From the NCBI GenBank assembly GCA_035400625.1, contig DAOMZT010000001.1, forward strand, positions 28,866 through 92,865: DNA of 64,000 bases, in the 5' to 3' direction. The position numbers and the translations under genes are program-made. A model generated the notes under the pieces. That model had not been told where the DNA came from and ran no database searches. It worked only from the letters and a program-made list of their open reading frames with translations. This stretch comes from an archaeon. Its GTDB lineage: Archaea; Iainarchaeota; Iainarchaeia; Iainarchaeales; CSSED10-239. The first letter of the stretch is position 1. Each line of letters starts with the position of its first letter. Below are positions 1,570 to 60,865 of the stretch, in pieces.

Positions 1570-3060
1570 ATGAAAACAATCCTTGTAATTCCCCCCTACT
1601 TTCCGTTAATCGCTACGGAAGATGAGAATATTGACAAAGAACCTAACAACGACCTACCAAAACCCCTTCTGCTTATGCCATATTTTCCGTTTTCTCTTAA
1701 GTCTTTTTCTTTCTTGTTCCTTGATTTTGAGATAATGCATTCTAAAAAACCAAAAACACTTGATTCTTGTCTGGAATTGATAATGAAACAAAAGCCTAAA
1801 AAAATTGTTTTTGATTTCTTGCAAGAACAACAATTTGAAAAATACAATCAAAATCTGCAAAACATTATTGAAAAAATCAAAACACTATATCCTGAAATTA
1901 AAATTGAAGAATTGAAAAACAACAAAGAAGGAAATTTTGAAGAAAAGAATTTAGAAAAGATAAAGGAAATTAGAAAATATGCTGTAAGAAATGAACAAAA
2001 GCTTTTTGTCATACAGGATTTAGCGAATTTAAAAGATGTTTACAAAATATTAAACCAAGAAATTTATGACTTCTGGTTTTTTAACTTTAGATCTCATTCT
2101 TTAAAAGAAATATTAAAATTAAAAAAAGACTATTTTGATCTAAATTATTATCTTACTTGCGATTTTGAAAAACTTAATTGCCAAGATGCAAGATTATTAT
2201 CAGAAAATGGGCTTGAAAAACTATATTTGAAATTAAAGATAAACAACAAATCTTTTGATTGTTTTTCAGAACATTTAGAGAAACTAAAAAACATCTCTTC
2301 TTTTTGTAAAATTGAGCTAACGATTATCCCTGAAATCTCAGAAATAAAAAATATTGAACTGATTGATTTTCTAAACACCTTAGATTTAGAAAAAATAAAA
2401 TATACTATTAAGCAAACAACAAGAAAAATAGAAACAAAAACAGAATTTATTAATTTCGGGGTGTTGGCTTTACTTAATGCTCTTGAAAAAAAAGAAGAAC
2501 TTAAAAAGAGGCTAATAGAAATACCAAAAATAAAAGACAAAACAACATTTGAACAAATTATTTCTTTTATTTTCAAAACAGAAAAGAAATATTTGGAATT
2601 TTATATTGACATCATACATTTCCTTGATGGTTTTTTCACAAAAGAAGAAATTATTGATTATCTAAATAGATTACACCCAGAAACCAAAAAAGAAAATATT
2701 GAAAAAATCGTTTATAATTTTATATCGCTTTTAGAAAAAGAAATGTTTATCGATTATGTTGATTCTAAAAAAGAACAGAAATCACATTATATAAGTGCAC
2801 TGCCAAGAAATAACAATCTTTTTTACATGTACTCCTGTTCACAAAAAGGATATATCTTGGGGAAAAACCAAAAACTGGAAGAAGTGCCAAAAGATGTTTT
2901 CTTTTTCTTTGTGTTCTCTAAAGGAATCTTCATGCTTAGAGAAATTGCAAACAAGCTTCGTCTTCTGTTTAAGGACAAAAAAGAGTTTAGCAAGGACAAC
3001 TACCTTAAGAGCACAGAGAAGATATACAATACTCTTAAACAATATGGGCTTTGCAAATAA
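1570..3060 (+). CDS. hypothetical K/E-rich protein (496 aa), no recognisable domain
   Basis: Long ORF with consistent coding bias and a TATA box at -27. N-terminus carries a repeated PYFP(L/F) peptide motif. Internal Met56 (1735) is an alternative start. Confidence 0.45.
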   Translation: MKTILVIPPYFPLIATEDENIDKEPNNDLPKPLLLMPYFPFSLKSFSFLFLDFEIMHSKKPKTLDSCLELIMKQKPKKIVFDFLQEQQFEKYNQNLQNIIEKIKTLYPEIKIEELKNNKEGNFEEKNLEKIKEIRKYAVRNEQKLFVIQDLANLKDVYKILNQEIYDFWFFNFRSHSLKEILKLKKDYFDLNYYLTCDFEKLNCQDARLLSENGLEKLYLKLKINNKSFDCFSEHLEKLKNISSFCKIELTIIPEISEIKNIELIDFLNTLDLEKIKYTIKQTTRKIETKTEFINFGVLALLNALEKKEELKKRLIEIPKIKDKTTFEQIISFIFKTEKKYLEFYIDIIHFLDGFFTKEEIIDYLNRLHPETKKENIEKIVYNFISLLEKEMFIDYVDSKKEQKSHYISALPRNNNLFYMYSCSQKGYILGKNQKLEEVPKDVFFFFVFSKGIFMLREIANKLRLLFKDKKEFSKDNYLKSTEKIYNTLKQYGLCK

Positions 3061-25773: not shown

Positions 25774-26454
25774 TTGCAAAATAACATGAATACAGCAGAA
25801 ATCAACAAAATCTATTATGTGCTTGAGAAAGCACTTAAAAAATATCCTTTGCCTTTTGCTGAGAGTGTTTATTTAGAATATAAAAAGCCTTTTTTTGTTT
25901 TGATTGCAACTATTCTTTCAGCAAGAACATTAGACAAGACAACAGATGTTGTTTGCAAAAGGCTGTTTCTTAAAGTCAAAAGCTTTAAAGACCTAGAAAA
26001 GATATCTCAAAAAGAACTTGAAAAACTGCTATACCCAGTTGGGTTTTATAAGACTAAAGCCAAGCACTTAAAAGAATTACCTAAAGTGGTTAATGAGAAA
26101 TTTGCAGGTAAAGTGCCTGATGAGATTGAGCAATTGTTAACGCTTCCTGGAGTTGGTAGAAAAACAGCTAACCTTGTTGTTTCTGTTGCCTTTGGTAAGC
26201 CAGGAATCTGTGTGGATACACATGTACATAGAATTACTAATATCTTAGGGATAGTAAAAACAAAAAATCCACCAGAAACAGAAAAGGCCTTAAGAGAAGT
26301 TTTGCCTAAAAGGCTATGGAATAAAACAAATTATCTTTTTGTAACACTTGGGCAAAATATCTGCTTTTCTAGAAAGCCAAAATGTAGGGAATGCCCTATT
26401 GCTAAGATGTGTAGTGTTGGAAGAAGATTGAATAATTCTAAAAAGACCTTCTAA
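25774..26454 (+). CDS. nth: endonuclease III (HhH-GPD DNA glycosylase with C-terminal 4Fe-4S cluster loop)
   Basis: HhH-GPD motif LPGVGRKTANLV, catalytic K/D region, and C-x6-C-x2-C-x5-C at the C-terminus. Confidence 0.85.
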   Translation: MQNNMNTAEINKIYYVLEKALKKYPLPFAESVYLEYKKPFFVLIATILSARTLDKTTDVVCKRLFLKVKSFKDLEKISQKELEKLLYPVGFYKTKAKHLKELPKVVNEKFAGKVPDEIEQLLTLPGVGRKTANLVVSVAFGKPGICVDTHVHRITNILGIVKTKNPPETEKALREVLPKRLWNKTNYLFVTLGQNICFSRKPKCRECPIAKMCSVGRRLNNSKKTF

Positions 26455-29845: not shown

Positions 29846-30931
29846 TTAGAACACTCTGGACTCTCTTCTTGGAAATCTAAAGCCATAACTTTTGGTTTTC
29901 TCAAGTATCTTGTTAGTAATTAGATCTATTTCTTGAAGAGTCAAGCGACTTCTTATGTCTGCCTCTATTAAAACTGAAGGGTAGGTGTATTTTGGGTTAA
30001 AAGAAGATATCTCAGACACCATTTGAACAAGCTTTTCTGTGTAGTCCTTTAGAGAAAGACCAAACTCCTTGTAATAAACAAACTCCAGCCTTAGAGGATA
30101 ATCATTATCTGAAAGTTTCAAATAACAACAATAGAGATTGTCCCTTATCTCTTCAGGGAAATCAGAAAGTATTGGGTGGGACTTAGGATCCTTGGAATAT
30201 TTAAAGACACCTGTTCTTTGATTTTTAGAAAGCAGAGAAAAAACTAAAAAAGCATCAAATAACTCAAAGTCAAAATTTTGATCATTAAAGATTTCTTCTT
30301 TTAAAACTGAAAAGAAACGATTTGCCCTAGAGTCTTCAATTGCACCTGCTAAGAAAATCTTTTTCTCTCTTGCTTCTTTGTAAACAAACAAGAATCTAGA
30401 AAGCAAATACTCGTATTTCTTTTTTTGAGGACAATCCCTTGTTGGCTTGTTGATGTATTGAGGAATTATGGAGCCGTCAAACAAAAGAAGGTCGGGGACG
30501 TTGTTGCATTGTCCAAGAATTAGTGAAGAAATTTGCAGTTCTTTTTCTAAGCGAGAAATAGATGTGTTCCACATTATTTCTTCTAGTTCTAATGAAGAAC
30601 TTGAAAGATAGGGTTTTGGCAGATTATACATGTTTGGAAAATACCTATAGTCTTTTAATTCCCCGTCTTGATAATCAAAAAACACCCCGCTTTCTTTTAT
30701 GATTGTAATATTTGCAAAATTTAGTTGCTTAGACACAAACCCTGAATCAACACCTGCAACTTTTAAAGAAAAGTTTCTTTCATATGAAATGTTCTCTATC
30801 AGTTTTTCTTCAGGATTATAAGGATTAGCTACTTCAGAGATATTAAGAGATCTAAGACGAGAAATAAAGACTTGATTCTTATTATAGGTATTAAGCATCT
30901 GCTCAACAATGTTATTAATATCTTGTTCCAT
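29846..30931 (-). CDS. NurA-like (RNase H-fold) putative nuclease, 361 aa
   Basis: Ordered acidic motifs VAGVD62SGF, E115-118 and LLLFD152GSII. These resemble the NurA catalytic D-E-D arrangement and its DGS signature. Start codon is 2 nt after the RelE-like gene stop. Confidence 0.4.
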   Translation of the reverse strand: MEQDINNIVEQMLNTYNKNQVFISRLRSLNISEVANPYNPEEKLIENISYERNFSLKVAGVDSGFVSKQLNFANITIIKESGVFFDYQDGELKDYRYFPNMYNLPKPYLSSSSLELEEIMWNTSISRLEKELQISSLILGQCNNVPDLLLFDGSIIPQYINKPTRDCPQKKKYEYLLSRFLFVYKEAREKKIFLAGAIEDSRANRFFSVLKEEIFNDQNFDFELFDAFLVFSLLSKNQRTGVFKYSKDPKSHPILSDFPEEIRDNLYCCYLKLSDNDYPLRLEFVYYKEFGLSLKDYTEKLVQMVSEISSFNPKYTYPSVLIEADIRSRLTLQEIDLITNKILEKTKSYGFRFPRRESRVF

Positions 30932-30933
30932 GT

Positions 30934-31422
30934 TTACTCCAAATTTAATTCTTTCAATAACTCTTTTTCAGTAATTAATTTCTCTTTTTTTAATTTTTTT
31001 CTTATTTTCTTAACATATTCTATATCTTCTATAGTTTCATATTCATCTAGTTTTTCTTTAATAAACTTCATAAATTTCTTATCATTAGTTTCTTTCCCTG
31101 CAGTTATATAATATATTTTCAATTGAGGGGATTTTAATACATTTGTAAATTCTGAATTTGTTTCTGGGTTAAAATAAGTATATATGTATTTTCTATGCCC
31201 TACAGAAAGAATGTATATTTTATCAGATTTAAATTCATAAATAACCCTATAATTTCCTATATGTAAACTTCTACAACCGCTTAGTTCGTGTGACAGTGGT
31301 TTTCCTAGTTCTGGGTTTTCAGATAATTGCTCTAGTTTTTTAAATATTTGATCTTCGATTTTTTTGTCTAATGATTTTAATATTTTCTTTTGTTTTTCTG
31401 TAATATAAATCTCAAAGGTCAT
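30934..31422 (-). CDS. RelE/ParE-family toxin domain fused to about 70-aa C-terminal extension
   Basis: GKPLSHELSGCRSLHIGNYRVIYEFKSDKIYILSVGHRKYIY matches the RelE/ParE core with conserved R, R/K and Y positions. ATGA overlap with the upstream antitoxin gene. Confidence 0.65.
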   Translation of the reverse strand: MTFEIYITEKQKKILKSLDKKIEDQIFKKLEQLSENPELGKPLSHELSGCRSLHIGNYRVIYEFKSDKIYILSVGHRKYIYTYFNPETNSEFTNVLKSPQLKIYYITAGKETNDKKFMKFIKEKLDEYETIEDIEYVKKIRKKLKKEKLITEKELLKELNLE

Positions 31423-34744: not shown

Positions 34745-35740
34745 TTAGAAAAAATCAGAAATTGAAATTTGGGAAAGATCAGTAATTGGTCTTGACCATA
34801 TACCTAGTTCTTTGTTTATTGTTTTTGAAAACTCGTTTGCAAAGCCGTGCATTGTAAACACTTTTTTTGGGTTTACGGCCTTAACAAAATCTAAAAGATC
34901 CTGATAATCACAATGATCTGAAATTGGAATGCATTTTCCTGAACGATAATGCTTCCAGCCTGTTGCTAAGTAACTTGAAACTTTTCTATTTTGTTGGTGT
35001 TCTAGGCACCTTATTAAATCTCTGTTGATCAGATTCATTGGAACAATCAAGATATTGTGTTCTGAAATATTATGATCTAATAGTTCATATTTACCTAAAG
35101 AAATATTAAAATCCTCATAGATTTTAGAAAATTCAAATGCTTTCTTTGTGACTAGTGGCGTTTCTTTAAGATAATCATTTACAAATCTTATTAGCTCTTG
35201 AGATTTTCCAAGAGAATAAGCACCAATCAATACTAACCTGTTGTTTTTAATATCCTTTGTTATCATCTCTGCAAAGTCCTCATAGACCTGCTCTCTTCTT
35301 GGAAAAGAAAATTCCTTTTTGCCAAATGTTGTTTCTAATATCAGAATGTCTGCTTCTTTTGGTGTTGCTGCTTTTAAGAGAAGAGAGTCCTGCATTTTAA
35401 AATCACCAGTATAAAGAACAGACTTGTCTTTACTCTCTAGATAAAACATCTTACTTCCAAGAATGTGGCCAGCATCAAGAGCAGAAAGGTTAATGTTGTC
35501 TGTTAAATTTAAGGTGTTGCCATTAACAAAAGAATAAGACATTTCTCTTTTTGTGTACAGGTCAATAAATGAGGCTGTTTCTTTTGTTGTAAATATCTTT
35601 TGGTTTGTAATTGAGATGTGATCAGAGTGGCCATGAGTGATTAAACTATAGTCATTAATATTTGTTTCTTTTGTTTGGTCAATATTTGCCTTTTGGTCTT
35701 TATCAATAACTGAAAAACAATTAGAATAGTTTAGAATCAT
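34745..35740 (-). CDS. metallo-beta-lactamase-fold hydrolase
   Basis: HxHxDH motif (ITHGHSDH) and downstream DAGHILGS and TMHG histidines. Confidence 0.6.
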   Translation of the reverse strand: MILNYSNCFSVIDKDQKANIDQTKETNINDYSLITHGHSDHISITNQKIFTTKETASFIDLYTKREMSYSFVNGNTLNLTDNINLSALDAGHILGSKMFYLESKDKSVLYTGDFKMQDSLLLKAATPKEADILILETTFGKKEFSFPRREQVYEDFAEMITKDIKNNRLVLIGAYSLGKSQELIRFVNDYLKETPLVTKKAFEFSKIYEDFNISLGKYELLDHNISEHNILIVPMNLINRDLIRCLEHQQNRKVSSYLATGWKHYRSGKCIPISDHCDYQDLLDFVKAVNPKKVFTMHGFANEFSKTINKELGIWSRPITDLSQISISDFF

Positions 35741-36808: not shown

Positions 36809-38269
36809 ATGGAGCATAAATTGTGTTTACTTAATAGTAGTTATGAAAAAGACAGGGCAAGAGTGGTTCTCTACTTTGGTAGAGACCCTCTTAATAATAA
36901 CTATGAATTAATACACAAAGCAACATATTATCCATATTTTATTGTAGAGTTAGAAAAAGAGCTAGTATCACAATTGCTTTCTGATTTTAAAAAAGATATT
37001 TCTCTTAAATCCCTAGACAAAAAGACCAAAATTATTGCAAGAGACTTTGAACTACTTTCTAAGTGTTCTAAAATACTTCAACAGGCAACAGGAAAAAATA
37101 TTATTCTAATAGAACCTGAAAGACAGTTTTTAATAAGAAATAATTGGAGTTACTATGATTCCTTTTGCGTTTTTAAAAGGAACATCAGAAAAATAAATAA
37201 TGAAAACCACATACATTTTGCAATAAAAAACTATACAAAAAATTTAAATTATTCTGAGAAAATAAGATTAATAGAGCCACTAACAAAGAAATTAATATTA
37301 AGTAATATCTTAAGGCTAAAACCAGAGACAAATATTAAAAATGATCAAATACTAAATATACTTTTTGAAAATGAGTTTTTCAATAAAGAATTAATATTAA
37401 CAAACACGAATAATTTCTATTACCAGACCAAAGAAAAATTTATTAAAGACCATATTAATCTAGATTTCTCTAATATTTTACCACACCTTTTAACTAAAAA
37501 TTTCAATAATGTTGGTTTTGAAACCATAAATTGTGCTTGCTGCAAACCCCTTTCAACTTTACAAGAGAATGTTATGCCATCATCTCTTGTAGAAGTTGAA
37601 TTTAAAAAATCTGGTTTTTATTTTATTTCTTGTGATGATTATTGGGCAAGAGAATATCATAATAATCACGAACTAAAAGAGAACAGAGAAAACTACAAAA
37701 AGCAAAATGGCTTATTTAAGATGGTTGTTGGCCCTTTCTCTAAAGGGCAAAAAGAGAAAATATTGCTTGCTGATGCTTTAAGGCTTTTAAAAGACAAGGA
37801 TCTAACAATATTAGAAAATCAAACAAACCTTGTCTGGAGCTGTAAAAAACAAGAATCTTTTGTTTCAAAGATAATTAACACTCTTTTTGAAAGACAAAAT
37901 GTAATTGAACAATCAATTAACATTAGCACTCTTGGTAGCTATTCTGTTGGCAATTTTGAAAATTCTAAAGCTCTTGAAACAAACCCTCTTTTCTTACAAT
38001 ATTTAACAGAATATTCGCTTATTAATTCTTTAATTGAAGAAATCCCAAAATTTATGCAAAATAAAAATACTAAGTTTTATTCTTCTACAATAGACAATAT
38101 CCTAAGAAACATAAAATATAATACTCTTGAAAGAGTTACAGAAAATGATGAGACATTAATCATTTCCAAAACAGGTAATTTTCAAATAAAAAATAAAACC
38201 TTGCTTTCAAAAATAAATAGTTCCTTTCAGGAAATGGGGCTACCAATCCCTAGGTTAATCGTTAATTAA
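36809..38269 (+). CDS. family-B DNA polymerase N-terminal-domain-like protein (truncated, possibly inactivated PolB derivative)
   Basis: Residues 1-120 parallel the archaeal PolB N-terminal domain. SSYEKDRARVVLYF matches DYITEDGKPVIRLF, YELIHKATYYPYFIVEL matches FKIEHDRTFRPYIYALL, and IEPERQFLIRNN matches DIPFAKRYLIDKG. No YGDTDS/KxxxNSxYG polymerase motifs. Exo I position reads FAIKN or FENEF instead of FDIET. Confidence 0.4.
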   Translation: MEHKLCLLNSSYEKDRARVVLYFGRDPLNNNYELIHKATYYPYFIVELEKELVSQLLSDFKKDISLKSLDKKTKIIARDFELLSKCSKILQQATGKNIILIEPERQFLIRNNWSYYDSFCVFKRNIRKINNENHIHFAIKNYTKNLNYSEKIRLIEPLTKKLILSNILRLKPETNIKNDQILNILFENEFFNKELILTNTNNFYYQTKEKFIKDHINLDFSNILPHLLTKNFNNVGFETINCACCKPLSTLQENVMPSSLVEVEFKKSGFYFISCDDYWAREYHNNHELKENRENYKKQNGLFKMVVGPFSKGQKEKILLADALRLLKDKDLTILENQTNLVWSCKKQESFVSKIINTLFERQNVIEQSINISTLGSYSVGNFENSKALETNPLFLQYLTEYSLINSLIEEIPKFMQNKNTKFYSSTIDNILRNIKYNTLERVTENDETLIISKTGNFQIKNKTLLSKINSSFQEMGLPIPRLIVN

Positions 38270-38271
38270 AT

Positions 38272-39000
38272 TTAAAAGTCATAAACTTTTTCAGCAGTTA
38301 ATTTATTATATAAAACCAATCTGTGTTTTAGAGTGTTGGATTTATCTTGAACAGTTTCTAATCTTATTTCTCTTAGTCCACCATTTTTCATTATGATATC
38401 ATTTGCTTTCTCTATATTTCTTCTAATTAATTTAAAATTTGGTTTTTTGCTATTTAAGTTTGTTCTTGCATCATATGCAGGCACATAAGCTTTTTTATCA
38501 AGCCAAACACGCCTAAATCCTTTTGCTTCTTTTATAACATTATAAGCCTCTGATTGAGTTTTACCAAAATCAGTATATGGTCGCAAAACTACAACCCCAT
38601 CGACAGGGTCAAAATAAACAACACCTTTATGCTTTAATAGTTCATTATTTGCTAAATTAATATCTTGCTGTTTAACTTTTGAAGGGCCTTTAGAAACCAA
38701 TGGGCTAAAAATACTAAGTACTTCATCTGTGTAAAAACTTTCTAAGTTCTGTGGTTTTTTATTTGTTAATGTTTTTGATTCTGCAATCTTTCTATAATAT
38801 TCTATTTTCGCAGTTTGTTTTGGCTTTACAACTATTTCCCTATATCCACCTACCCCTATAGCACCTGCCAATGCTGCAACAATTAATGTTTTTCTTAGTT
38901 TAGAAAAATTTGGCTTAATAGAGATTTTCCTTCTTGGTGTTGATGTTGATTTTGGTTTCAGTACTTTAATTTTCGTAAATTTTTTAGCCATAATTATCAA
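38272..39000 (-). CDS. membrane-anchored hypothetical protein (N-terminal basic tail + single TM)
   Basis: TM segment LIVAALAGAIGVGGY. No family assigned. Confidence 0.45.
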   Translation of the reverse strand: MIIMAKKFTKIKVLKPKSTSTPRRKISIKPNFSKLRKTLIVAALAGAIGVGGYREIVVKPKQTAKIEYYRKIAESKTLTNKKPQNLESFYTDEVLSIFSPLVSKGPSKVKQQDINLANNELLKHKGVVYFDPVDGVVVLRPYTDFGKTQSEAYNVIKEAKGFRRVWLDKKAYVPAYDARTNLNSKKPNFKLIRRNIEKANDIIMKNGGLREIRLETVQDKSNTLKHRLVLYNKLTAEKVYDF

Positions 39001-41315: not shown

Positions 41316-43820
41316 ATGGCAATTGATTTTGAATCTGAAGAAATTATTGTTGGAAGAAACCAAAGCCAAATAAAGAAATATGGAAAGAAGGCTACTGGCT
41401 ATATAGGCAAGGTTGTAGTGTCCAGCGGAGATGAGCCTGTTCTTGGCAAAAAAGTATTAATGGATGTCTCTCGTTCACATGTTGCGATAGTTTGTGGAAA
41501 AAGAGGTGGTGGCAAATGCCTGACAGGAGATACACTCATAACCTTAGAAGACGGAAGAGAGATACCTATTCAAGACTTAGGAAAGGAGAATAAAAAAATA
41601 ATTTCCTTACAAAAAAACCTGAAATTAAAATGTTGTAAAAAAGAACAATTCTACAAACGCACGGTAAACAAAGTATTAGAAATAACATTAAGAAGCGGGA
41701 AAAAAATAAAACTAACCCCAAATCATCCATTATTAACAGTATGTGGTTGGAAAGAAACTAAAGATTTAAAAAAAGGAAGCAGAATTGCTACACCTAGAGA
41801 GGTGCCTAGATTTGGCAACAAAAAGCTTCGTGATTGTGAAGTTAAATTATTAGCATATTTAATCGCAGAGGGCCATTTAGGGAATGGATTTGTGTTGTTT
41901 TGCAATAATGATGAAAAAATCATTTCAGAATTCAAAAATGTAATTTATTCTTTTGATAAAGGACTAAAGATATCGCCTCATGGTCGCAATAACTTAAGAA
42001 TATCTAAAATTGAAAATGGCAAAGAAAAAAACAGTTTAAGGAAATATTTTGATTCTCTTGGATTATATAATGTAAAATCAGATACTAAATTCATTCCAGA
42101 AACTATATTTCAATTACCTAAAGAACAACTTTCTATATTTTTAAATAGATTATTTAGTTGTGATGGCACCATCCATTTTGATAAAAATAAAAAAGAATAT
42201 AATATTTCTTATTCATCTTCATCTCCTAAACTAATACAACAAGTCCAAAGTTTGCTTTTAAGATTTGGATTGCTTTCAATAATTAGAACAAAAAAAACTA
42301 AAAAATTACCAAACTATGAACTAAAAATCTTGTCTTCTCAAAATTTAGAATTTATTAAAAAAATCGGGTTTTTTGGGAAAAAAGAAGAAATACAAAAAAA
42401 AGTAAAAACAAAAAATAGCAATCCTAATGTAGATACAATACCTAAAGAAATTTGGGAAATTTACAGACCAAAAAACTGGGCGACAGTTGGTAAAGGATTT
42501 GGTTATAAATCATTAAGATCATCAATCAACTATTCTCCATCTAGAGAAAAACTACTTAAAATTGCAAATTGCGAAAATAATAAAGAATTGAAAAACCTTG
42601 CAACTAGCGATATCTTCTGGGACGAGATTATTGATATAAAAGAAATTAACAAAAAACAAACAGTTTATGATATAACAGTTCCAGAAACTCATAATTTTGT
42701 TGCAAACAACATTATTGTCCATAATAGCTATACTATGTCTGTTCTGATAGAAGAATTTGCAAAACAGCCATTTGAAATTAAAGAAAGATTGTCTGTTATT
42801 GTCATAGACACTGTTGGAATATTCTGGACCATGAAATATCCAAACAAAGAAGATGCAAAGCTTCTTGAAAAATGGAATCTCAAACCAGAAGGAATAGATA
42901 TCAGAAATCTTGTGCCTTTTGGTAAGAAAGACTTCTATGAACAAAAAAATCTTCCACATGATGGTTGTTTCTCAATAAGGACTTCACAAATGGATATTGA
43001 AGATTGGCTTGGAGTATTTAGACTTAATTGGAGAGATGCAGAGTCTTCTTTGCTTTCAAGAACTATAGAGAAAATAAAAAACAAGGTTGGAAATCTTTAT
43101 GATATTGACGACATCATGAACGAAGCAAAAAAAGACACAGAAACATCATCAGAAATAATCAACTCTTTAAATAATAGATTTCTTGTTGCTAAATCCTGGG
43201 GGCTATTCTCTAGATCAGGGACAACAATGAAGGAGTTTGCAAAGCCAGGAACAATAACTATTATTGATACCAGTACTTACAAAGAAGCAATTGGCATGGA
43301 ATCAATTAGAGAACTTATTGTTGGAATACTTGGTAAAAGACTATATGAAGAAAGAATGCTTTATAGAAAAGAAGAAGAAATGGGGTTGTTATCTGGCGGA
43401 AGAAAAGAAAGCGAGATGCCAATTATCTGGATGATGATTGATGAGGCACACATGTTTATGCCTAGCGACAGGCATTCAATGGCACTTGATGTTTTGTTAC
43501 AATGGATCAGGGTTGGAAGACAGCCAGGGTTATCTTTGCTTCTTGCAACACAAAGGCCAAACAAATTACATAACGAGGCAATCTCGCAATGTGATTTTTT
43601 CTTGAGTATGAGAATGACTTCTCAAGAGGACATTATGGCTGTCTCATCAATTAGGCCAAGCTATCTTAATATTCCTATGGACAAATATTATGGACAGATG
43701 CCAAAAGACCAAGGTTATGCAATACTTCTAGATGATAACTCAGAAAAAGTAATGTTAATAAAAATTAGACCAAGAATAACATGGGATGGTGGAAAGACAG
43801 CAAATGTTTTTGTTGATTAA
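41316..43820 (+). CDS. FtsK/HerA-superfamily (DUF87/HerA-like) ATPase interrupted by an intein in the Walker A motif
   Basis: Exteins give Walker A GKRGGGK|S, Walker B IIWMMIDEAH, and the LLLATQRP motif characteristic of HerA/FtsK/VirB4. The mature extein is about 431 aa. Confidence 0.75.
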   Translation: MAIDFESEEIIVGRNQSQIKKYGKKATGYIGKVVVSSGDEPVLGKKVLMDVSRSHVAIVCGKRGGGKCLTGDTLITLEDGREIPIQDLGKENKKIISLQKNLKLKCCKKEQFYKRTVNKVLEITLRSGKKIKLTPNHPLLTVCGWKETKDLKKGSRIATPREVPRFGNKKLRDCEVKLLAYLIAEGHLGNGFVLFCNNDEKIISEFKNVIYSFDKGLKISPHGRNNLRISKIENGKEKNSLRKYFDSLGLYNVKSDTKFIPETIFQLPKEQLSIFLNRLFSCDGTIHFDKNKKEYNISYSSSSPKLIQQVQSLLLRFGLLSIIRTKKTKKLPNYELKILSSQNLEFIKKIGFFGKKEEIQKKVKTKNSNPNVDTIPKEIWEIYRPKNWATVGKGFGYKSLRSSINYSPSREKLLKIANCENNKELKNLATSDIFWDEIIDIKEINKKQTVYDITVPETHNFVANNIIVHNSYTMSVLIEEFAKQPFEIKERLSVIVIDTVGIFWTMKYPNKEDAKLLEKWNLKPEGIDIRNLVPFGKKDFYEQKNLPHDGCFSIRTSQMDIEDWLGVFRLNWRDAESSLLSRTIEKIKNKVGNLYDIDDIMNEAKKDTETSSEIINSLNNRFLVAKSWGLFSRSGTTMKEFAKPGTITIIDTSTYKEAIGMESIRELIVGILGKRLYEERMLYRKEEEMGLLSGGRKESEMPIIWMMIDEAHMFMPSDRHSMALDVLLQWIRVGRQPGLSLLLATQRPNKLHNEAISQCDFFLSMRMTSQEDIMAVSSIRPSYLNIPMDKYYGQMPKDQGYAILLDDNSEKVMLIKIRPRITWDGGKTANVFVD
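41517..42725 (+). mobile_element. intein (403 aa) with LAGLIDADG homing-endonuclease domain
   Basis: Starts with Cys (CLTGDTLI, block A). Has block B TPNHPLL, two LAGLIDADG motifs (LLAYLIAEGHLG and LNRLFSCDGTI), and C-terminal block G ...NIIVHN followed by the +1 Ser of the P-loop. Length is divisible by 3. Confidence 0.85.
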
Positions 43821-48256: not shown

Positions 48257-49699
48257 CTAGATTGTGGTTTCTTCCTTTTTTATCTCTATGTTGCTACTTG
48301 TCAGAGTTGGTCGCAAAAGAAGCCTTAATGGATCCTTATCAGGGTATCTTATGACAACATCATTATTAGATATAACCTCTATTTTCACTGTTGCTGGTTC
48401 TTTATCTATGAAATCATCAATATGCCCTGCACCAATACAGTAGTTTAATTTTGGGTTTTCCTTAAGTATTGTTAATAGCTCATTTCCAATAAACGAATTG
48501 TTAAAGACATCGCTTGCTTGAGGAATAATTACTAACACGTCCTCTTTTACTTCTTCAGATAATTTTTTAAGTATTCCATAAATGTAATAAACGTGCAATG
48601 GGTTATTTCTATTAATCATGAAGACCTTGCTTGATCCTATATTTTTATATGTGCTTTCAAAAACTATTGAAAGATCAGTCTCTCCAAAATAACCACAATA
48701 CACATCATCAATAATATTCAATTTAGAGATTATCCTCCATTTTTCAAAGTCAGTTATTTCATCTGTAATTCCTATGGCTGCGATATTCGCTATTAATTCA
48801 GAAATGTCCTTTACATTATCGGTATATGCCTGATCAATAATTTTTTGAGAAACACCAGTAAATTTAAATAAATTGATAAAAGCCAATTTTGGTATTGTGT
48901 ATAATGGTATCTTAATCTTAAAAAAATCAATTGTGTTTATTGGGAAGCCAAAAGGAGAGACCTTCATATCAAAGGCACTCAACAGTTCTTCTTTTTGCTG
49001 AGGATAAGATAATGTCTTAAACACCCCTGTGCTATCAAAGACAATCACTTTCTTTGAAGACAGCAGGTAATTTTCAGCAATAACTTTCATTGCAAATATT
49101 CTATCTTCTTCTTCTGAACCTGTTACTACAATTGACCTTAGATTCTCTAAGCTGGCATTAATTGTAATTCCATTCTTTCTACCAACCAACAACTTATCTA
49201 CTGAACTAATTGCTGATGAAAATTCTATGTTGTTTGGAGAGTTGGTCAATACCTTAACAATAAACGGATCATAAAAGAAATAATTTTTCTGTTCTGGTGG
49301 CAACATCTTTAGTGACAATAGTTTTATGTTATAAGATTTTATTATAGAAATAATGGAACTTGTGATTTTGTTTAATTTTAATATTTTCTTTTCTATGTGT
49401 TCATTAAGTTGAGAAGAATCTACTATTTCTGTATCTGTGTTTAATATGAAAAATTTGTGAGTGTTCTTGTCGCCAATGTCAAAATGCTTCTCAAAAACAA
49501 TACACTGGTTTGGTAGTGTTTCTGCAAATAATTCTATATCCCCATCAACACCAAACACCTTGTATAATTGAACAAGCACCGAAGACGGATCTTTTGATCT
49601 TAATAAAGAAACAAAATAGTCATCATTAAATAAAATTGCCAAATCTTTTTGACCATATACACCTTCAAAAAGTGTACTCCAAGTTGTTATTTGTGCCAT
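48257..49699 (-). CDS. inactivated paralogue of the HerA-like ATPase (degenerate Walker A/B)
   Basis: SIVVTGSEEEDR...VIVFDSTGVFKTLSYPQQKEELL...VSPFGFP parallels the HerA-like protein HVAIVCGKRGGGKS...VIVIDTVGIFWTMKYPNKEDAKLL...LVPFG. Walker A and B positions are replaced (GSEEEDR; PQAS for DEAH). Confidence 0.5.
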   Translation of the reverse strand: MAQITTWSTLFEGVYGQKDLAILFNDDYFVSLLRSKDPSSVLVQLYKVFGVDGDIELFAETLPNQCIVFEKHFDIGDKNTHKFFILNTDTEIVDSSQLNEHIEKKILKLNKITSSIISIIKSYNIKLLSLKMLPPEQKNYFFYDPFIVKVLTNSPNNIEFSSAISSVDKLLVGRKNGITINASLENLRSIVVTGSEEEDRIFAMKVIAENYLLSSKKVIVFDSTGVFKTLSYPQQKEELLSAFDMKVSPFGFPINTIDFFKIKIPLYTIPKLAFINLFKFTGVSQKIIDQAYTDNVKDISELIANIAAIGITDEITDFEKWRIISKLNIIDDVYCGYFGETDLSIVFESTYKNIGSSKVFMINRNNPLHVYYIYGILKKLSEEVKEDVLVIIPQASDVFNNSFIGNELLTILKENPKLNYCIGAGHIDDFIDKEPATVKIEVISNNDVVIRYPDKDPLRLLLRPTLTSSNIEIKKEETTI

Positions 49700-52480: not shown

Positions 52481-53083
52481 ATGATTTCAAAACTAATTTC
52501 TCTTGTTGTTCTTTTTTTTGTAATTATAGATCCATTAACTAGTTTTGTTGTTTTTTTTGTAAGCACTAAAGGTTTTAATAACAAAGCAAAGATAAAGATT
52601 GCAACACTGTCTGTTCTTTTAGCAGCCTTTATCTCTTATCTTGTTCTTTTTTTAGGACAAAGTCTTTTGAAATTATTTAGCACAGACATAAACAGCTTTA
52701 AGATTGCAGGAGGAATAATCTTGGTTATTCTTGGGATAAACATGTCTCTTGGAAAATCATTTAATGATCTTGAAAAAATGGAAGGGGATTCTGTGCATGC
52801 CGTTGCTTCAATTATTGCAACTCCATTAATCAGCGGGCCTGCCACAATCACTGCAATCATAATTTCTGCATCTGACTATGGTAGGTTTTTAACAGGAATT
52901 GCCATAGGGATAATTCTTGCGATAATTGCAATATTGTTTTATTTTTCAATCAAATTTCATGATGTTACTTCTAAAGCAAAAACCACAATGCAAGTAGTAA
53001 CAACAATAATGGGGCTTATCACTCTTGCTTGGGGTGTTAACTTTATACTTACTGGTGTAAAAGCATTATTTCACTTGATCTAA
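52481..53083 (+). CDS. MarC-family (UPF0056) integral membrane protein
   Basis: N-terminal IIDPLTSFVVF motif and a six-TM, 200-aa size. Confidence 0.65.
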   Translation: MISKLISLVVLFFVIIDPLTSFVVFFVSTKGFNNKAKIKIATLSVLLAAFISYLVLFLGQSLLKLFSTDINSFKIAGGIILVILGINMSLGKSFNDLEKMEGDSVHAVASIIATPLISGPATITAIIISASDYGRFLTGIAIGIILAIIAILFYFSIKFHDVTSKAKTTMQVVTTIMGLITLAWGVNFILTGVKALFHLI

Positions 53084-53745
53084 AGCAGTTTCTTTTGGTA
53101 TAGCTCATTAACTATGTTGTCAACAGTCTTCCATTTCATTCTAGTATATTCTGGAAAGCTCTTGTGCTTTTTAAAATAGTCTTTTAGAAAATCGATTGTT
53201 TTTGGATCAGAAGAATAACCAGAAATATCCAAGCCAACTAGTTTTTTTAGCATCTCGTCTCTTGTAACTTTGGCAAGGATTGATGCACAAGAAACAGATG
53301 GATGGTTAAGATCGGCCTTGTGCTCAGAAATTATTTTATAATTATATTCGTGCTTTATGGCTTTTAAGTTATCCTTTATTCTTTTTGTAAACTTTGTTGT
53401 TGTGGTATCTGGGGAATCAAACACAAGATAAAGAGGAGTTGATTTTAATTTGCTTATAGCAAAGGCAGCTTTTTGCGCCTCTATCTCGTTAAGAGAAAAT
53501 CTGTCCATTAATATGTTTAATTCCTCTGCAGGAACAACCACTATCTTATACTCTTCTGCTTCTTTTTTAATCAGTTCAAATAGTTCTTCTCGTTGCTTTG
53601 AAGACAAGAGCTTAGAGTCTTTTACTCCTGCATCTTTAAACATCTTTTCCTTGTTTTTGTCTATCACACAAACTGCCAGGACAAGCGGTCCTAAGACACA
53701 GCCTCTTCCTGCCTCATCAAACCCTGCAACTAGTTGTTTAGTCAT
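53080..53745 (-). CDS. rnhB: ribonuclease HII
   Basis: VAGFDEAGRGCVLGPLVLAV catalytic DE motif and RNase HII length. Confidence 0.9.
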   Translation of the reverse strand: MTKQLVAGFDEAGRGCVLGPLVLAVCVIDKNKEKMFKDAGVKDSKLLSSKQREELFELIKKEAEEYKIVVVPAEELNILMDRFSLNEIEAQKAAFAISKLKSTPLYLVFDSPDTTTTKFTKRIKDNLKAIKHEYNYKIISEHKADLNHPSVSCASILAKVTRDEMLKKLVGLDISGYSSDPKTIDFLKDYFKKHKSFPEYTRMKWKTVDNIVNELYQKKLL

Positions 53746-60238: not shown

Positions 60239-60865
60239 TTATTTGAAAATTGTGCCTGTCTCTATATACCAGAGATAAAGATCAAGCTCACCAAGAGCAA
60301 GGTTGGTTTTTTTTGCAAGAGCCTCTAATTTTTTCTCAATTTTAAGGTAGTTTTCTTTATTCAGGGTTTTTGGCCTTTCTATCAGATTATTTTCTGCCAA
60401 AATATCAATGATGTGAAAATCAATAATCGCATAATCAAAAAAACCTATGTTTCTTAAGAAATGACTAGACTCCTTAAAGCCCAGGCCTTTAATGTTCTTT
60501 ACAAGCCACTCTCTTCTTTCATACCTATCTTTTATTAAGAATATTTTGTCTTTAATGTTGTCTTTATGTTCTTGTGCCAAAAAAATAAAATGAGCCCTTG
60601 TGTTTGGGAACCTGTGGCCGTGTTTTTTAAGAAGGGCAGAAAGTTCCTTTTCTGTGGCTGTCAAGAACAAATCACCACAGCTCTCTTGAATCTCAACAGC
60701 CCTTTTAGCATTAAAGTTAGCAGTCATCAAACAAAAACAAAGCTCCTTAAAGACCTCATGATTGCTTTTCTTTTGAAAAGATAAAAACTGCTTTTTCTTT
60801 TTCCCTATGTCTTTTCCTAAAGATGAGGACTTTAGAGTATTTATTTTAGAGAGAAGGGAATGCAT
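60239..60865 (-). CDS. ogg: archaeal-type 8-oxoguanine DNA glycosylase/AP lyase (Ogg2-like, HhH-GPD)
   Basis: HhH with catalytic Lys (IKGLGFKESSHFLRNIG) and Asp (IIDFHIIDIL). Confidence 0.7.
   Translation of the reverse strand: MHSLLSKINTLKSSSLGKDIGKKKKQFLSFQKKSNHEVFKELCFCLMTANFNAKRAVEIQESCGDLFLTATEKELSALLKKHGHRFPNTRAHFIFLAQEHKDNIKDKIFLIKDRYERREWLVKNIKGLGFKESSHFLRNIGFFDYAIIDFHIIDILAENNLIERPKTLNKENYLKIEKKLEALAKKTNLALGELDLYLWYIETGTIFK

What the first reader, a model, noticed from the sequence alone, without database searches (positions are those of the whole stretch)
36809..38269. Stand-alone PolB N-terminal-domain-like protein lacking polymerase motifs (inactivated or split family-B polymerase derivative?)
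The first roughly 120 residues track the archaeal family-B polymerase N-terminal domain motif by motif (DYITEDGKPVIRLF, FRPYIYALL, DIPFAKRYLIDKG equivalents). The ORF is only 486 aa. It has no YGDTDS or KxxxNSxYG motifs. The Exo I position is FAIKN, or alternatively FENEF about 45 aa downstream. This could be an inactivated PolB-derived structural protein, the N-terminal half of a split PolB, or a remnant of a mobile-element polymerase. Each possibility is unusual.
Basis: partly seen in the sequence, partly recalled or inferred. Interest (0 to 1): 0.65.

Follow-up and report, generated by a model that had tools for sequence, protein, structure and literature searches.

The report
Shrunken, dead family-B polymerase paralogue
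This gene encodes a conserved archaeal protein, found so far almost only in Iainarchaeota (DPANN), that is a cut-down, catalytically dead copy of a family-B DNA polymerase with no proofreading or thumb domain, carrying four invariant cysteines and usually encoded beside DNA-break-repair genes, so it probably works as a non-enzymatic DNA-handling subunit.

Summary
The ORF (36809..38269, +, 486 aa) is real, intact and under strong purifying selection (dN/dS 0.058). It belongs to a family of about 165 clusters at 50% identity, all about 430-560 aa, found almost only in Iainarchaeota. No Pfam, NCBIfam or PDB sequence search names it. A confident AlphaFold model (pLDDT 86) matches only family-B DNA polymerases, and so does its C-terminal half folded alone. 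Mapping shows a whole but shrunken PolB, not a stand-alone N-terminal domain. The N-terminal domain, palm and fingers are kept. The 3'-5' exonuclease domain and the thumb are gone. Motifs B and C are gone, and the motif A aspartate is only 80% conserved. This arrangement and position match the CysX/P-domain of eukaryotic Pol epsilon, but homology is unproven. In 38 of 41 loci of the divergent majority clade the gene follows NurA-HAD-HerA, and in 35 of these Rad50 converges on it. In the window this cluster is loosened. The best reading is a non-catalytic DNA-binding or scaffold subunit, probably working with the HerA-NurA-Rad50 end-resection machinery. It is a new variant of a known kind.

The parts
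36809..38269 (+). Complete gene for the miniaturised, inactivated PolB-like protein (486 aa plus stop)
   Evidence: ORF list. 35 close and 165 distant homologue clusters of the same length. dN/dS 0.058. AF2 model pLDDT 86 matches only PolBs.
36809..37207 (+). Residues 1-133: PolB N-terminal-domain equivalent (beta-beta-beta-beta-alpha-beta-beta-alpha-alpha)
   Evidence: AF2 secondary-structure order fits my recollection of the KOD N-terminal-domain topology. hhalign register family 9-67 = KOD 4-66, P 0.076. The full-length Foldseek alignments span 700-860 columns of PolBs.
37106..37165 (+). LIEPERQFLIRNNWSYYDSF: most conserved N-terminal-domain motif (R105, Q106, F107, L108, W113, F119 near-invariant).
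   Evidence: Translation; column counts in the 85-sequence alignment. The pairing with the KOD motif is by position only and was not returned by hhalign.
37208..37384 (+). Residues 134-192: short linker replacing the about 200-aa exonuclease domain, then helices equal to the second part of the PolB N-terminal domain (LSNILRL...ILFENEFF = KOD LSRLIG...VEWFLLRKAY)
   Evidence: hhalign A2 vs KOD: family 161-268 = KOD 330-444, E 0.0022. hmmsearch A2 vs 5mdn_A.
37385..37453 (+). Residues 193-215: poorly conserved, low-confidence linker before the palm
   Evidence: pLDDT below 50 at 201-208. Lowest information content, 0.88 bits. One homologue (P0016) carries a 53-aa duplication here.
37454..37531 (+). 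Residues 216-241: palm strand-turn with degenerate motif A (INLDFSNILPHLLTKNFNNVGFETIN; D219 = catalytic Asp position, D in 68/85, N in 11/85)
   Evidence: Translation. hmmsearch vs 5mdn_A. phmmer KOD vs family member L047, E 0.0015 in the 1071-ORF set. hhalign. Counts.
37532..37543 (+). C242-A-C244-C245: three invariant cysteines, 23-26 residues after the motif A Asp
   Evidence: 85/85 conserved. C245 falls in the same column as KOD C442, Pol2 C763 and family C345 in the fragment alignment. Offsets from motif A resemble Pol2 C665/C668/C677.
37544..37840 (+). Residues 246-344: conserved insertion domain (hairpin, two helices, hairpin, helix, strand) with invariant R293, G308, P309 and near-invariant N254, S259, H284, D322, W343. 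It has the same topological site and size as the Pol epsilon P-domain.
   Evidence: AF2 secondary structure. Conservation 2.17 bits, among the highest. KOD has only 13 residues between the equivalent cysteines. Pol epsilon ranks first by E-value in both Foldseek searches. P-domain description from PMC3986358.
37841..37843 (+). C345: fourth invariant cysteine, closing the insertion (WSCKKQESFVSKII = KOD [13 protein letters not shown] = Pol2 VCQRENPFYVDTV)
   Evidence: 85/85 conserved. Translation. Fragment alignment puts C345, KOD C442 and Pol2 C763 in one column.
37859..38059 (+). Residues 351-417: two long antiparallel helices = fingers subdomain. Motif B (KxxxNSxYG) replaced by LIEEIPKFMQ. 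Least conserved structured part.
   Evidence: AF2 helices 351-378 and 393-417. hmmsearch alignment to 5mdn_A 493-580 and hhalign to Pol2 motif B region. Information content 1.34 bits.
38060..38266 (+). Residues 418-486: C-terminal palm remnant. KNTKFY = PolB 'ARWY'. Motif C YGDTDS replaced by ISKTGN (452-457) with no conserved acidic residue. The protein ends about 30 residues later, so the KxY strand and whole thumb are absent.
   Evidence: hmmsearch vs 5mdn_A: 'rviqsskskafvk' against 'EVIYGDTDSLFVK'. Column counts. Translation. Regex.
41316..43820 (+). HerA-type ATPase gene (split by a LAGLIDADG intein). This is the family's commonest conserved neighbour; here it lies 3 kb downstream on the same strand.
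   Evidence: Pfam DUF87 + Intein_splicing + LAGLIDADG_3. HerA lies within 6 genes in 44/60 loci, and upstream on the same strand in 38/41 loci of the divergent clade.
29846..30931 (-). NurA nuclease gene, the second member of the conserved neighbourhood; here it lies 5.9 kb upstream on the opposite strand
   Evidence: Pfam NurA. NurA lies within 6 genes in 30/60 loci, ordered NurA>HAD>HerA>target in the divergent clade.

Best explanation
The gene encodes a catalytically dead, miniaturised paralogue of family-B DNA polymerase, found so far almost only in Iainarchaeota (DPANN).

Shown:
- It keeps the PolB N-terminal domain, the palm core and the two-helix fingers.
- The whole 3'-5' exonuclease domain is reduced to a short linker.
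- The chain stops about 30 residues after the motif C position, so there is no thumb.
- Motifs B and C are unrecognisable, and the motif A aspartate is dispensable (Asn in 13% of members).
- The best-conserved parts are the motif A strand, an N-terminal-domain helix (EPERQFL..W) and a roughly 100-residue insertion after motif A. The insertion is closed by four invariant cysteines, three at its start (CxCC) and one at its end.

Inferred:
- The four cysteines bind one metal centre (Zn or a [4Fe-4S] cluster) that staples the insertion to the palm, as CysX staples the P-domain in Pol epsilon.
- The protein cannot polymerise or proofread. It uses the remaining basic surfaces (pI about 9) to hold DNA or partner proteins.
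- In most Iainarchaeota the gene lies directly downstream of nurA-HAD-herA and faces rad50. The most likely role is therefore a non-enzymatic DNA-end-binding or scaffold subunit of the HerA-NurA/Rad50 double-strand-break resection and recombination machinery.

My confidence that it is an inactivated mini-PolB is about 0.9. My confidence that it acts in the HerA-NurA-Rad50 pathway is about 0.4.
For: Fold. The AF2 full-length model (pLDDT 86, pTM 0.86) has 108 PDB hits at E<=1e-3, and all 50 listed are PolBs. Residues 205-486 folded separately (pLDDT 84.5) again hit only PolBs. All named BFVD hits are DNA polymerases.

Sequence anchors. The A2 profile hits P. calidifontis PolB 5mdn_A at E 0.0086, aligning motif A and the motif B-to-C region. 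hhalign aligns family 161-268 with KOD 330-444 (E 0.0022). KOD phmmer finds only a family member, at motif A, among 1071 locus ORFs.

Inactivation. Column counts and regex.

Real, selected gene. dN/dS 0.058; 165 clusters of conserved length; 59 loci in GTDB species genomes.

Cysteines. C242, C244, C245 and C345 are 85/85 conserved.

Context. NurA>HAD>HerA>target and convergent Rad50, confirmed by Pfam. HerA is upstream on the same strand in 38/41 loci of the divergent clade, 19 of them with a gap of 150 nt or less. Rad50 is convergent in 35.
Against: - No direct evidence of DNA binding, metal binding or interaction with HerA, NurA or Rad50.
- All loci come from essentially one phylum, so some synteny may be inherited gene order. 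RpoK and EF-1beta are conserved there too.
- In the window's own clade the cluster is loosened: HerA is 3 kb away, NurA is on the other strand, and Rad50 is not within 10 kb. In a third clade, which includes the complete Ca. Forterrea genome, none of the three lies within 10 kb.
- I had no model coordinates, so the spatial clustering of the four cysteines and the absence of an exonuclease-fold remnant rest on sequence mapping and secondary structure.
- PolB2/Dpo2 was also called 'inactivated' from sequence, yet weak polymerase and exonuclease activity has been reported for the S. solfataricus enzyme (PMC4104785).
Confidence: 0.55

Rival explanations
1. Replisome scaffold: an archaeal functional analogue of the inactive C-terminal PolB module of eukaryotic Pol epsilon, tethering the replicative polymerase to the MCM/GINS helicase rather than acting in repair.
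For: The best-understood inactive PolB module does exactly this (PMC7544198). Pol epsilon structures top both Foldseek lists. Two of 85 members give weak hits to DUF1744, the Pol epsilon C-terminal module (E 0.018; in P0037 at residues 420-471). Five members give weak PSF2_N hits and two give weak Gins51_C hits.
Against: No MCM, GINS, PCNA, primase or polymerase gene is a conserved neighbour in the loci whose ORFs I clustered. All the Pfam hits are far below curated cut-offs. The Pol epsilon structures matched are the catalytic N-terminal cores, not shown to be the C-terminal module. No PIP box is present.
Confidence: 0.2
2. The HerA-NurA-Rad50 synteny is inherited gene order without functional meaning. 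The protein is a metal-dependent nucleic-acid-binding factor with some unrelated role, for example a regulator or an RNA-binding protein acting through the PolB N-terminal domain.
For: The family is confined essentially to one phylum. Unrelated housekeeping genes (RpoK, EF-1beta, CCA-adding enzyme) are conserved in the same neighbourhood. The linkage is lost in two clades, including the window's.
Against: The adjacency survives down to 22-30% protein identity, with 18-150 nt operon-like gaps in 19 loci. Three functionally related partners (NurA, HerA, Rad50) are all retained around it.
Confidence: 0.2
3. It is still an enzyme: a polymerase, nucleotidyltransferase or nuclease using a non-canonical active site. 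Conserved E187, D219, D322, H284 and R293 would be candidate residues.
For: PolB2/Dpo2 was predicted inactive, yet weak activities of both domains have been reported for the S. solfataricus enzyme (PMC4104785). Primer-independent PolBs work without the first motif C Asp (PMC7544198). Several polar residues are invariant.
Against: The motif C position has no conserved acidic residue at all. Motif B is gone. The motif A Asp is Asn in 11/85 members. The fingers are the least conserved structured part. The thumb and exonuclease domain are absent.
Confidence: 0.05
4. Fragment: the N-terminal half of a split PolB, a frameshifted pseudogene, or a decaying remnant of a mobile-element polymerase.
For: Short length; no catalytic motifs; an intein-containing gene nearby shows that selfish elements are active in this genome.
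Against: dN/dS 0.058. Conserved length in 165 clusters with no longer relative. A convergent gene 2 nt after the stop and no downstream + strand ORF. The protein already contains the motif A-to-C region. No polymerase gene in the window. Viral PolBs match worse than cellular ones.
Confidence: 0.02

Closest known systems
Archaeal replicative/repair family-B DNA polymerases (PolB1/PolB3; e.g. KOD, Tgo, Sso PolB1 1s5j, P. calidifontis 5mdn)
   Same: Same overall fold for the N-terminal domain, palm and fingers (Foldseek prob 1.00, TMq 0.44-0.48). Collinear remnants of the N-terminal-domain motifs, the LSRLIG...VEWFLL helix, motif A, the C-x5-F-[IV]..[LI][LI] helix start and the 'RWY' motif.
   Different: About 290 residues shorter. 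The exonuclease domain and thumb are absent. Motifs B and C and Exo I-III are absent. A 100-residue Cys-stapled insertion sits where KOD has a 13-residue loop. No Pfam DNA_pol_B or DNA_pol_B_exo1 hit.
[quoted passage not shown]
   Same: A cellular archaeal PolB paralogue with disrupted catalytic motifs, conserved under selection and proposed to act in repair or regulation as part of a complex encoded by neighbouring genes.
   Different: PolB2 is detectable by ordinary sequence searches and, per PMC4104785, has disrupted rather than absent polymerase and exonuclease domains. It is linked to inactivated RadA paralogues and arCOG07300. This family is invisible to Pfam/HMMER PolB models and lacks the exonuclease and thumb domains. 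It has a Cys4 insertion and is linked to NurA-HAD-HerA and Rad50. Direct sequence comparison with PolB2 was not done.
Catalytic core of eukaryotic DNA polymerase epsilon (Pol2/POLE N-terminal half) with P-domain and CysX [4Fe-4S] motif
   Same: It is the top structural match by E-value for both the full-length model and the C-terminal fragment. An insertion of about 100 residues sits at the same point after motif A. Cysteines are arranged three at the N-terminal base and one at the C-terminal base. Offsets from the motif A Asp are +23/+25/+26/+126 here against +25/+28/+37/+123 in Pol2. The secondary-structure order is similar: strand(s), two helices, strands.
   Different: Pol epsilon is an active polymerase-exonuclease of over 1100 residues with a thumb. 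Insertion sequence similarity is not significant (hhalign E 0.18). TM-scores are no better than for archaeal PolBs. PF22634, which marks the Pol epsilon hits, was not among the query's hits or the 25 listed for the 85 members. Cysteine spacing differs (CxCC against Cx2Cx8C). The literature states that CysX and the P-domain are exclusive to Pol epsilon orthologues (PMC6582351, PMC7544198).
Inactive C-terminal PolB module of Pol epsilon (DUF1744) and other exapted dead PolBs (poxvirus F12, polinton helicase-PolB fusions)
   Same: The same concept: a PolB fold retained as a non-catalytic structural or interaction module after loss of active-site residues. Weak DUF1744 hits in 2/85 members.
   Different: Those modules are fused to or embedded in larger proteins, are eukaryotic or viral, and are not known to carry a Cys4-stapled palm insertion. 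This one is a free-standing archaeal protein in a repair-gene neighbourhood.

Membership tests
Family-B DNA polymerase (structural superfamily) | PolB fold: N-terminal domain plus palm plus fingers in PolB topology | tested here: met
   Foldseek PDB: 108 hits at E<=1e-3, all 50 listed are PolBs, best 4.7e-7, prob 1.00. The C-terminal fragment alone also hits only PolBs. All named BFVD hits are DNA polymerases.
Family-B DNA polymerase (Pfam DNA_pol_B PF00136 / DNA_pol_B_exo1 PF03104) | Match to the curated sequence profiles | tested here: not met
   No hit for the query at E<=10. Neither family is among the 25 listed for the 85 members at E<=1 nor hit by ten further members. NCBIfam gives none.
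Family-B DNA polymerase (active enzyme) | Motif A DxxSLYPS with catalytic Asp | tested here: inconclusive
   A recognisable remnant LDFSxxWPxL is present. The Asp is kept in 68/85 members, Asn in 11; Tyr and Ser are not conserved.
Family-B DNA polymerase (active enzyme) | Motif B KxxxNSxYG and motif C YGDTDS (second catalytic Asp) | tested here: not met
   The positions align to LIEEIPKFMQ and ISKTGN. No conserved Lys/Asn/Tyr-Gly or acidic residue.
Family-B DNA polymerase (active enzyme) | 3'-5' exonuclease domain with Exo I-III | tested here: not met
   Only about 40 residues lie between the N-terminal domain and the helix equal to KOD 330-365. No DxE motif. Absence of the fold was not checked on coordinates.
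Family-B DNA polymerase (active enzyme) | Thumb domain and KxY motif after motif C | tested here: not met
   The protein ends 30 residues after the motif C position. A convergent gene follows the stop and there is no downstream ORF.
Archaeal PolB2 (inactivated PolB family) | Operon with inactivated RadA paralogue and arCOG07300 (PMC4104785) | tested here: not met
   Conserved neighbours are NurA, HAD, HerA, RpoK, Rad50 and EF-1beta. No RadA-like Pfam hit among the window ORFs I scanned.
Archaeal PolB2 (inactivated PolB family) | Sequence clustering with PolB2 in PolB phylogeny | not tested
   No PolB2 sequences were fetched. The family is not reached by HMMER from or to canonical PolBs.
Pol epsilon-type palm (CysX + P-domain) | Four conserved cysteines, three before and one after an insertion that follows motif A | tested here: met
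   C242, C244, C245 and C345 invariant in 85/85 members. Offsets from the motif A Asp are comparable with Pol2.
Pol epsilon-type palm (CysX + P-domain) | Insertion folds as the P-domain (three-stranded sheet capped by two helices) and is homologous to it | tested here: inconclusive
   Similar order of secondary-structure elements, and Pol epsilon is first by E-value. But TM-scores are no better than for archaeal PolBs, hhalign gives E 0.18, and PF22634 was not among the hits listed.
Pol epsilon-type palm (CysX + P-domain) | Binds a [4Fe-4S] cluster | not testable with these tools
   Needs anaerobic purification, UV-visible/EPR spectroscopy or iron quantification.
Split PolB (e.g. two-gene PolB of some methanogens, split-intein PolB of Nanoarchaeum; recalled from general knowledge) | A partner gene encoding the missing C-terminal catalytic half | tested here: not met
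   The protein itself covers the region up to motif C. No PolB-like ORF in the window or in the loci whose ORFs I clustered. The rest of the genome could not be scanned.
HerA-NurA / Mre11-Rad50 end-resection system (as an accessory subunit) | Conserved co-location with herA, nurA and rad50 | tested here: met
   HerA within 6 genes in 44/60 loci, NurA in 30, Rad50 in 35. The order NurA>HAD>HerA>target is fixed in the divergent clade. The link is loosened in the window's clade.
HerA-NurA / Mre11-Rad50 end-resection system (as an accessory subunit) | Physical or functional interaction with the machinery | not testable with these tools
   Needs pull-downs, complex prediction with coordinates, or genetics.

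The most novel reading that the evidence does not exclude
The Cys4-stapled insertion is a true homologue of the Pol epsilon P-domain/CysX iron-sulfur module, which is currently held to be exclusive to eukaryotic Pol epsilon orthologues. This DPANN family would then be the first prokaryotic carrier of that module. It would be a free-standing, inactivated PolB with an Fe-S 'staple', working as a DNA-end sensor or scaffold with HerA-NurA-Rad50, possibly in place of an Mre11 partner (none is encoded near Rad50 in these loci). That would give an archaeal precedent both for the Pol epsilon-specific palm elaboration and for the exaptation of dead PolB modules as scaffolds.
Probability: 0.15. Interest if true: 0.85.

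Novelty: new variant of a known kind. Interest (0 to 1): 0.62.

Why it matters
Inactivated PolB modules are known: archaeal PolB2, the C-terminal half of Pol epsilon, and poxvirus F12. How and why polymerases are recycled into scaffolds remains an open theme in the evolution of replication and repair machines.

This family is an extreme case. About 40% of the enzyme has been deleted and every catalytic motif has been lost. The gene is nevertheless under selection as strong as that on ribosomal and chromatin protein genes across the sampled Iainarchaeota. It went unnoticed in the sequence-based PolB census (PMC7544198), probably because only structure prediction reveals it.

Two features make it testable and potentially informative.
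- An invariant 3+1 cysteine staple sits around an insertion at the exact site of the Pol epsilon P-domain/CysX Fe-S module. That module is thought to be unique to eukaryotes.
- The gene has a conserved position inside a NurA-HAD-HerA / Rad50 cluster that lacks a nearby Mre11.

If either link holds, the protein would add a new component to archaeal double-strand-break processing. [quoted passage not shown]

Tried and rejected
- Single-sequence and profile searches against Pfam, NCBIfam, PDB sequences, PADLOC and PHROGs gave nothing usable. The only sequence bridge is a marginal profile hit to 5mdn_A (E 0.0086).
- hhalign of the family against Thermococcales PolB and fungal Pol epsilon alignments built here stayed weak, because those alignments have little diversity (E 0.0026 and 0.33 in greedy mode). 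With single sequences the values were E 0.0022 and 0.064.
- A direct test of P-domain homology by hhalign on the excised insertion failed (E 0.18).
- The search for related loci with the divergent alignment A2 failed for lack of conserved stretches, so A1 was used instead.
- I looked for Mre11-like ORFs (GNHD plus DxH...GD motifs) in the clustered loci and found none. I checked whether the variable ORFs sometimes lying between HerA and the target were Mre11. By inspection of their sequences they are not, and they look unrelated to one another.
- I looked for a canonical PolB in the window and loci with KOD phmmer and found none. No PIP box is present.
- Five literature searches found no description of the family, and a CysX/P-domain search turned up no archaeal carrier of that module. 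The library is incomplete, so this is not proof of novelty.
- Rejected interpretations: Exo I at FAIKN or FENEF, a split PolB, a pseudogene, and a mobile-element remnant.
Full report
**1. Observation**

The region is AT-rich (GC about 0.28-0.30) and the genes around it are archaeal housekeeping genes. These include Alba, L44e, L15e, TFB, fibrillarin/Nop5, GatE/GatD-like genes, tRNA synthetases and RNase HII. The sequence has no YGDTDS/DTD, no KxxxNSxYG and no DxE Exo I motif. The stop codon is followed two bases later by the end of a convergent gene (38272..39000). No + strand ORF longer than 36 aa lies downstream. A frameshifted continuation into a polymerase or thumb domain is therefore excluded.

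**2. A real, selected gene family**

The protein has 35 close homologues, all 473-535 aa apart from one partial sequence of 397 aa. Sources name them 'archaeon' or 'Candidatus ainarchaeum' and none has a Pfam domain. A profile of these sequences, scored against 1.84 billion cluster representatives, finds 165 clusters. None exceeds about 560 aa and none is a canonical PolB.

A scan of GTDB species genomes returned 59 loci. Nearly all are labelled Iainarchaeum, ainarchaeum or unclassified archaeon. They include the complete genome of Ca. Forterrea multitransposorum, phylum Iainarchaeota, DPANN.

Against a 91%-identical orthologue (locus L060) the gene has dN/dS 0.058. This is indistinguishable from the adjacent Alba (0.049), cysteine desulfurase (0.056) and L44e (0.083) genes. 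It is not a decaying remnant.

**3. Fold**

No sequence library names the protein:
- Pfam, NCBIfam and PDB sequences for the single sequence
- PDB sequences with the 35-sequence profile
- PADLOC and PHROGs

AlphaFold2 with the 35-sequence alignment gives a confident model (mean pLDDT 86.2, pTM 0.86). Foldseek against the PDB returns 108 matches at E<=1e-3. All 50 listed are family-B DNA polymerases: Pol epsilon catalytic cores, Sso PolB1, Tgo/KOD/9N, and P. calidifontis PolB. The best E-value is 4.7e-7, probability 1.00, and TM-score normalised to the query is 0.40-0.48.

**4. Domain and motif map**

An 85-sequence alignment of divergent members (A2) gives a marginal but informative profile hit to P. 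calidifontis PolB (5mdn_A, E 0.0086):
- The family 'ldFSnvwpelltkpfyNlGfet' aligns with motif A 'LDFSSMYPNIMMKYNLSPDT'.
- Family positions 402-489 align with the motif B-to-C stretch.
- At motif C, 'EVIYGDTDSLFVK' faces 'rviqsskskafvk'.

Two further results agree with this.
- hhalign against KOD polymerase aligns family 161-268 with KOD 330-444 (E 0.0022). My typed KOD sequence was verified as 100% identical to database entries.
- KOD phmmer against all ORFs of the clustered loci finds only a family member, at motif A.

The resulting map is:

| Residues | Assignment |
|---|---|
| 1-133 | PolB N-terminal domain. Secondary-structure order fits my recollection of KOD.
| about 134-160 | All that remains where the roughly 200-residue exonuclease domain should be. 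|
| 161-192 | The helix pair that follows the exonuclease domain in PolBs.
| 216-241 | Motif A strand. |
| 242-350 | Cysteine-bracketed insertion. |
| 351-417 | The two finger helices, without motif B. |
| 418-486 | Rest of the palm. ISKTGN stands in place of YGDTDS, and the chain ends about 30 residues later. There is no KxY strand and no thumb. |

Across 85 members the motif A Asp is D in 68 and N in 11. The motif C position is variable and has no conserved acid. The fingers are the least conserved structured part. The polymerase and exonuclease activities are therefore lost. This conclusion rests on sequence mapping, not on an assay.

**5. The conserved centre: four cysteines and an insertion**

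The invariant residues of the family are P42, C242, C244, C245, R293, G308, P309 and C345. Near-invariant residues include R105, W113, E187, N234, N254, H284, D322 and W343. The motif A strand and the insertion carry the highest information content.

C345 opens a segment (CKKQESFVSKIINTLFERQ) that aligns without gaps to two polymerase segments, with the three cysteines in one column:
- KOD C442 ([20 protein letters not shown])
- yeast Pol2 C763 (CQRENPFYVDTVKSFRDRR)

Thermococcales PolBs have 13 residues between the two equivalent cysteines. This family has about 100, and Pol epsilon has about 95 (the P-domain).

In Pol2 the CysX cysteines C665, C668, C677 and C763 lie +25, +28, +37 and +123 from the motif A Asp D640. 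The Pol2 sequence I used was verified. [quoted passage not shown] Together they hold a [4Fe-4S] 'staple' (PMC6582351). In this family the offsets are +23, +25, +26 and +126.

The P-domain is described as a three-stranded sheet capped by two helices (PMC3986358). The model of the insertion has a hairpin, two helices, a hairpin, a helix and a strand. Pol epsilon cores rank first by E-value in both Foldseek searches and show the highest identities (12-14% for human POLE).

Against homology:
- TM-scores are not better than for archaeal PolBs.
- hhalign on the excised region gives E 0.18.
- The Pfam family that marks the Pol epsilon hits (PF22634) was not among the hits listed for the query or the members.

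The literature states that CysX and the P-domain occur only in Pol epsilon orthologues (PMC7544198; PMC6582351). I therefore treat the resemblance as a lead, with a probability of true homology of about 0.15-0.25. A single Cys4 metal site, Zn or Fe-S, is an inference.

**6. Genomic context**

I called ORFs in the window and the clustered loci and clustered them by BLASTP. Three arrangements appear.

| Clade | Loci | Arrangement |
|---|---|---|
| Divergent majority (22-33% identity to the window protein) | L019-L059 (41 loci) | NurA > HAD hydrolase > HerA > target > (RpoK), with Rad50 (SMC_N/SbcC Walker B, CPKC zinc hook) and EF-1beta converging from the other side. Pfam confirms the identities. 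|
| The window's clade | window, L001-L006, L018 | HerA (here carrying a LAGLIDADG intein, 41316..43820) lies 2.7-5.3 kb downstream on the same strand. NurA (29846..30931) lies 5.6-7 kb upstream on the other strand. Rad50 is not within 10 kb. |
| Third clade, including Ca. Forterrea | most of L007-L017, L052 | No HerA or Rad50 within 10 kb; NurA in one locus only (L007, 7.8 kb upstream). |

In the majority clade HerA is upstream on the same strand in 38 of 41 loci, and 19 of these have gaps of 150 nt or less. Rad50 is convergent in 35.

No Mre11-like phosphoesterase motif pair was found in any locus ORF. The occasional ORFs between HerA and the target look unrelated to one another. No replication gene is a conserved neighbour.

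**7. Mechanism and rivals**

Most likely, the protein is a non-catalytic PolB relic. It would use what is left of the DNA-binding surfaces (window protein pI 9.0, family median 8.4) and a metal-stapled insertion to bind DNA ends or partner proteins. It would act within, or alongside, the HerA-NurA/Rad50 resection machinery. One plausible origin is a repair PolB once encoded in that cluster.

- Shown: PolB descent, loss of the domains and motifs, purifying selection, invariant cysteines, synteny.
- Inferred: metal binding, DNA binding, partnership with HerA, NurA or Rad50.

The rivals are:
- a replisome scaffold like the Pol epsilon C-terminal module, supported only by weak DUF1744, PSF2_N and Gins51_C hits;
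- synteny by inheritance, with an unrelated role;
- a cryptic enzyme;
- a fragment or pseudogene, which is rejected.

**8. Comparison with known families, and novelty**

The protein passes the structural test for the PolB superfamily. It fails every test for an active PolB: profiles, Exo I-III, motifs B and C, and the thumb.

It resembles PolB2 and the Pol epsilon C-terminal module in concept. It differs from them in four ways:
- architecture (no exonuclease domain, no thumb)
- the Cys4 insertion
- gene neighbourhood (PolB2 goes with inactivated RadA and arCOG07300)
- invisibility to sequence searches

The comprehensive PolB census does not mention such a family, nor does it mention Iainarchaeota or Diapherotrites. 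Five further full-text searches found no description of the family, and a CysX/P-domain search found no archaeal carrier of that module. I classify it as a new variant of a known kind, namely inactivated PolB paralogues.

**9. Limits**

- The rest of the genome could not be scanned for PolB, PolD or Mre11.
- The PolB and Pol epsilon alignments available for profile comparison were shallow.
- The functional assignment rests on gene order within essentially one phylum, and that order is loosened in the window's own clade.

Noticed in passing
window 41316-43820 (+): The HerA-type ATPase gene is interrupted by an intein with a LAGLIDADG homing-endonuclease domain (834 aa; Pfam Intein_splicing, LAGLIDADG_3, DUF87). 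Orthologues in related loci occur both with it (L003 857 aa, L060) and without it (L001 431 aa). HerA genes of 1126 and 1198 aa in L034 and L047 suggest further insertions.
   Followed up: partly
window 29846-30931 (-) and 30934-31422 (-): The NurA nuclease gene lies directly downstream of, and three bases from, an ORF with a ParE-toxin domain (162 aa). This is an unusual pairing of a repair nuclease with a toxin-like gene.
   Followed up: no
loci L019-L059 (e.g. L043 11952-14003, -): The Rad50 genes of these Iainarchaeota are preceded by EF-1beta. They have no Mre11-like phosphoesterase gene anywhere within 10 kb, by a motif search only. Whether Mre11 exists elsewhere in these genomes is unknown.
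   Followed up: partly
family alignment A2 (85 members): Five members give weak Pfam hits to PSF2_N (best E 0.0049) and two to Gins51_C (0.029). As I recall, both are the small beta-rich B-domain of GINS subunits. The region of the protein responsible was not located; ten sampled members showed none.
   Followed up: partly
protein P0016 (homologue, 535 aa), alignment A1 columns about 226-278: One homologue carries an internal tandem duplication of about 53 residues (…KPEINIKNDEILNILFENNFY…repeated) in the helix-linker region before the palm. This is the region with the lowest model confidence and conservation.
   Followed up: no
loci L031 and L056: Two family members sit on contigs binned as 'Candidatus Falkowbacteria bacterium' (a CPR bacterium) and 'Thaumarchaeota archaeon'. 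L056 carries the typical NurA-HerA...Rad50 context, so this is probably mis-binning rather than horizontal transfer.
   Followed up: no
window 38272-39000 (-): The 242-aa ORF convergent with the target has no Pfam hit and is not conserved at this position. In L060 Alba follows the target directly, and L001 and L003 have different ORFs here. It may be a lineage-specific insertion.
   Followed up: partly
window 48257-49699 (-) and 1570-3060 (+): Two large ORFs (480 and 496 aa) have no Pfam family at E<=1e-3 or 1e-4. They are further uncharacterised proteins in this window.
   Followed up: no
window 34745-35740 (-): A 331-aa metallo-beta-lactamase/beta-CASP-like protein (weak RMMBL and DRMBL hits, the Artemis/SNM1/CPSF type) lies 1 kb upstream of the target. 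It is conserved at that position in the window's clade (cluster f25 in L001 and L003). This is another nucleic-acid-end-processing candidate near the gene.
   Followed up: no
window 25774-26454 (+), 60239-60865 (-), 53080-53745 (-): Two base-excision glycosylases (HhH-GPD and Ogg-type) and RNase HII are encoded in the window. No replicative polymerase, primase, MCM, GINS or PCNA gene was seen among the 50 ORFs scanned.
   Followed up: no
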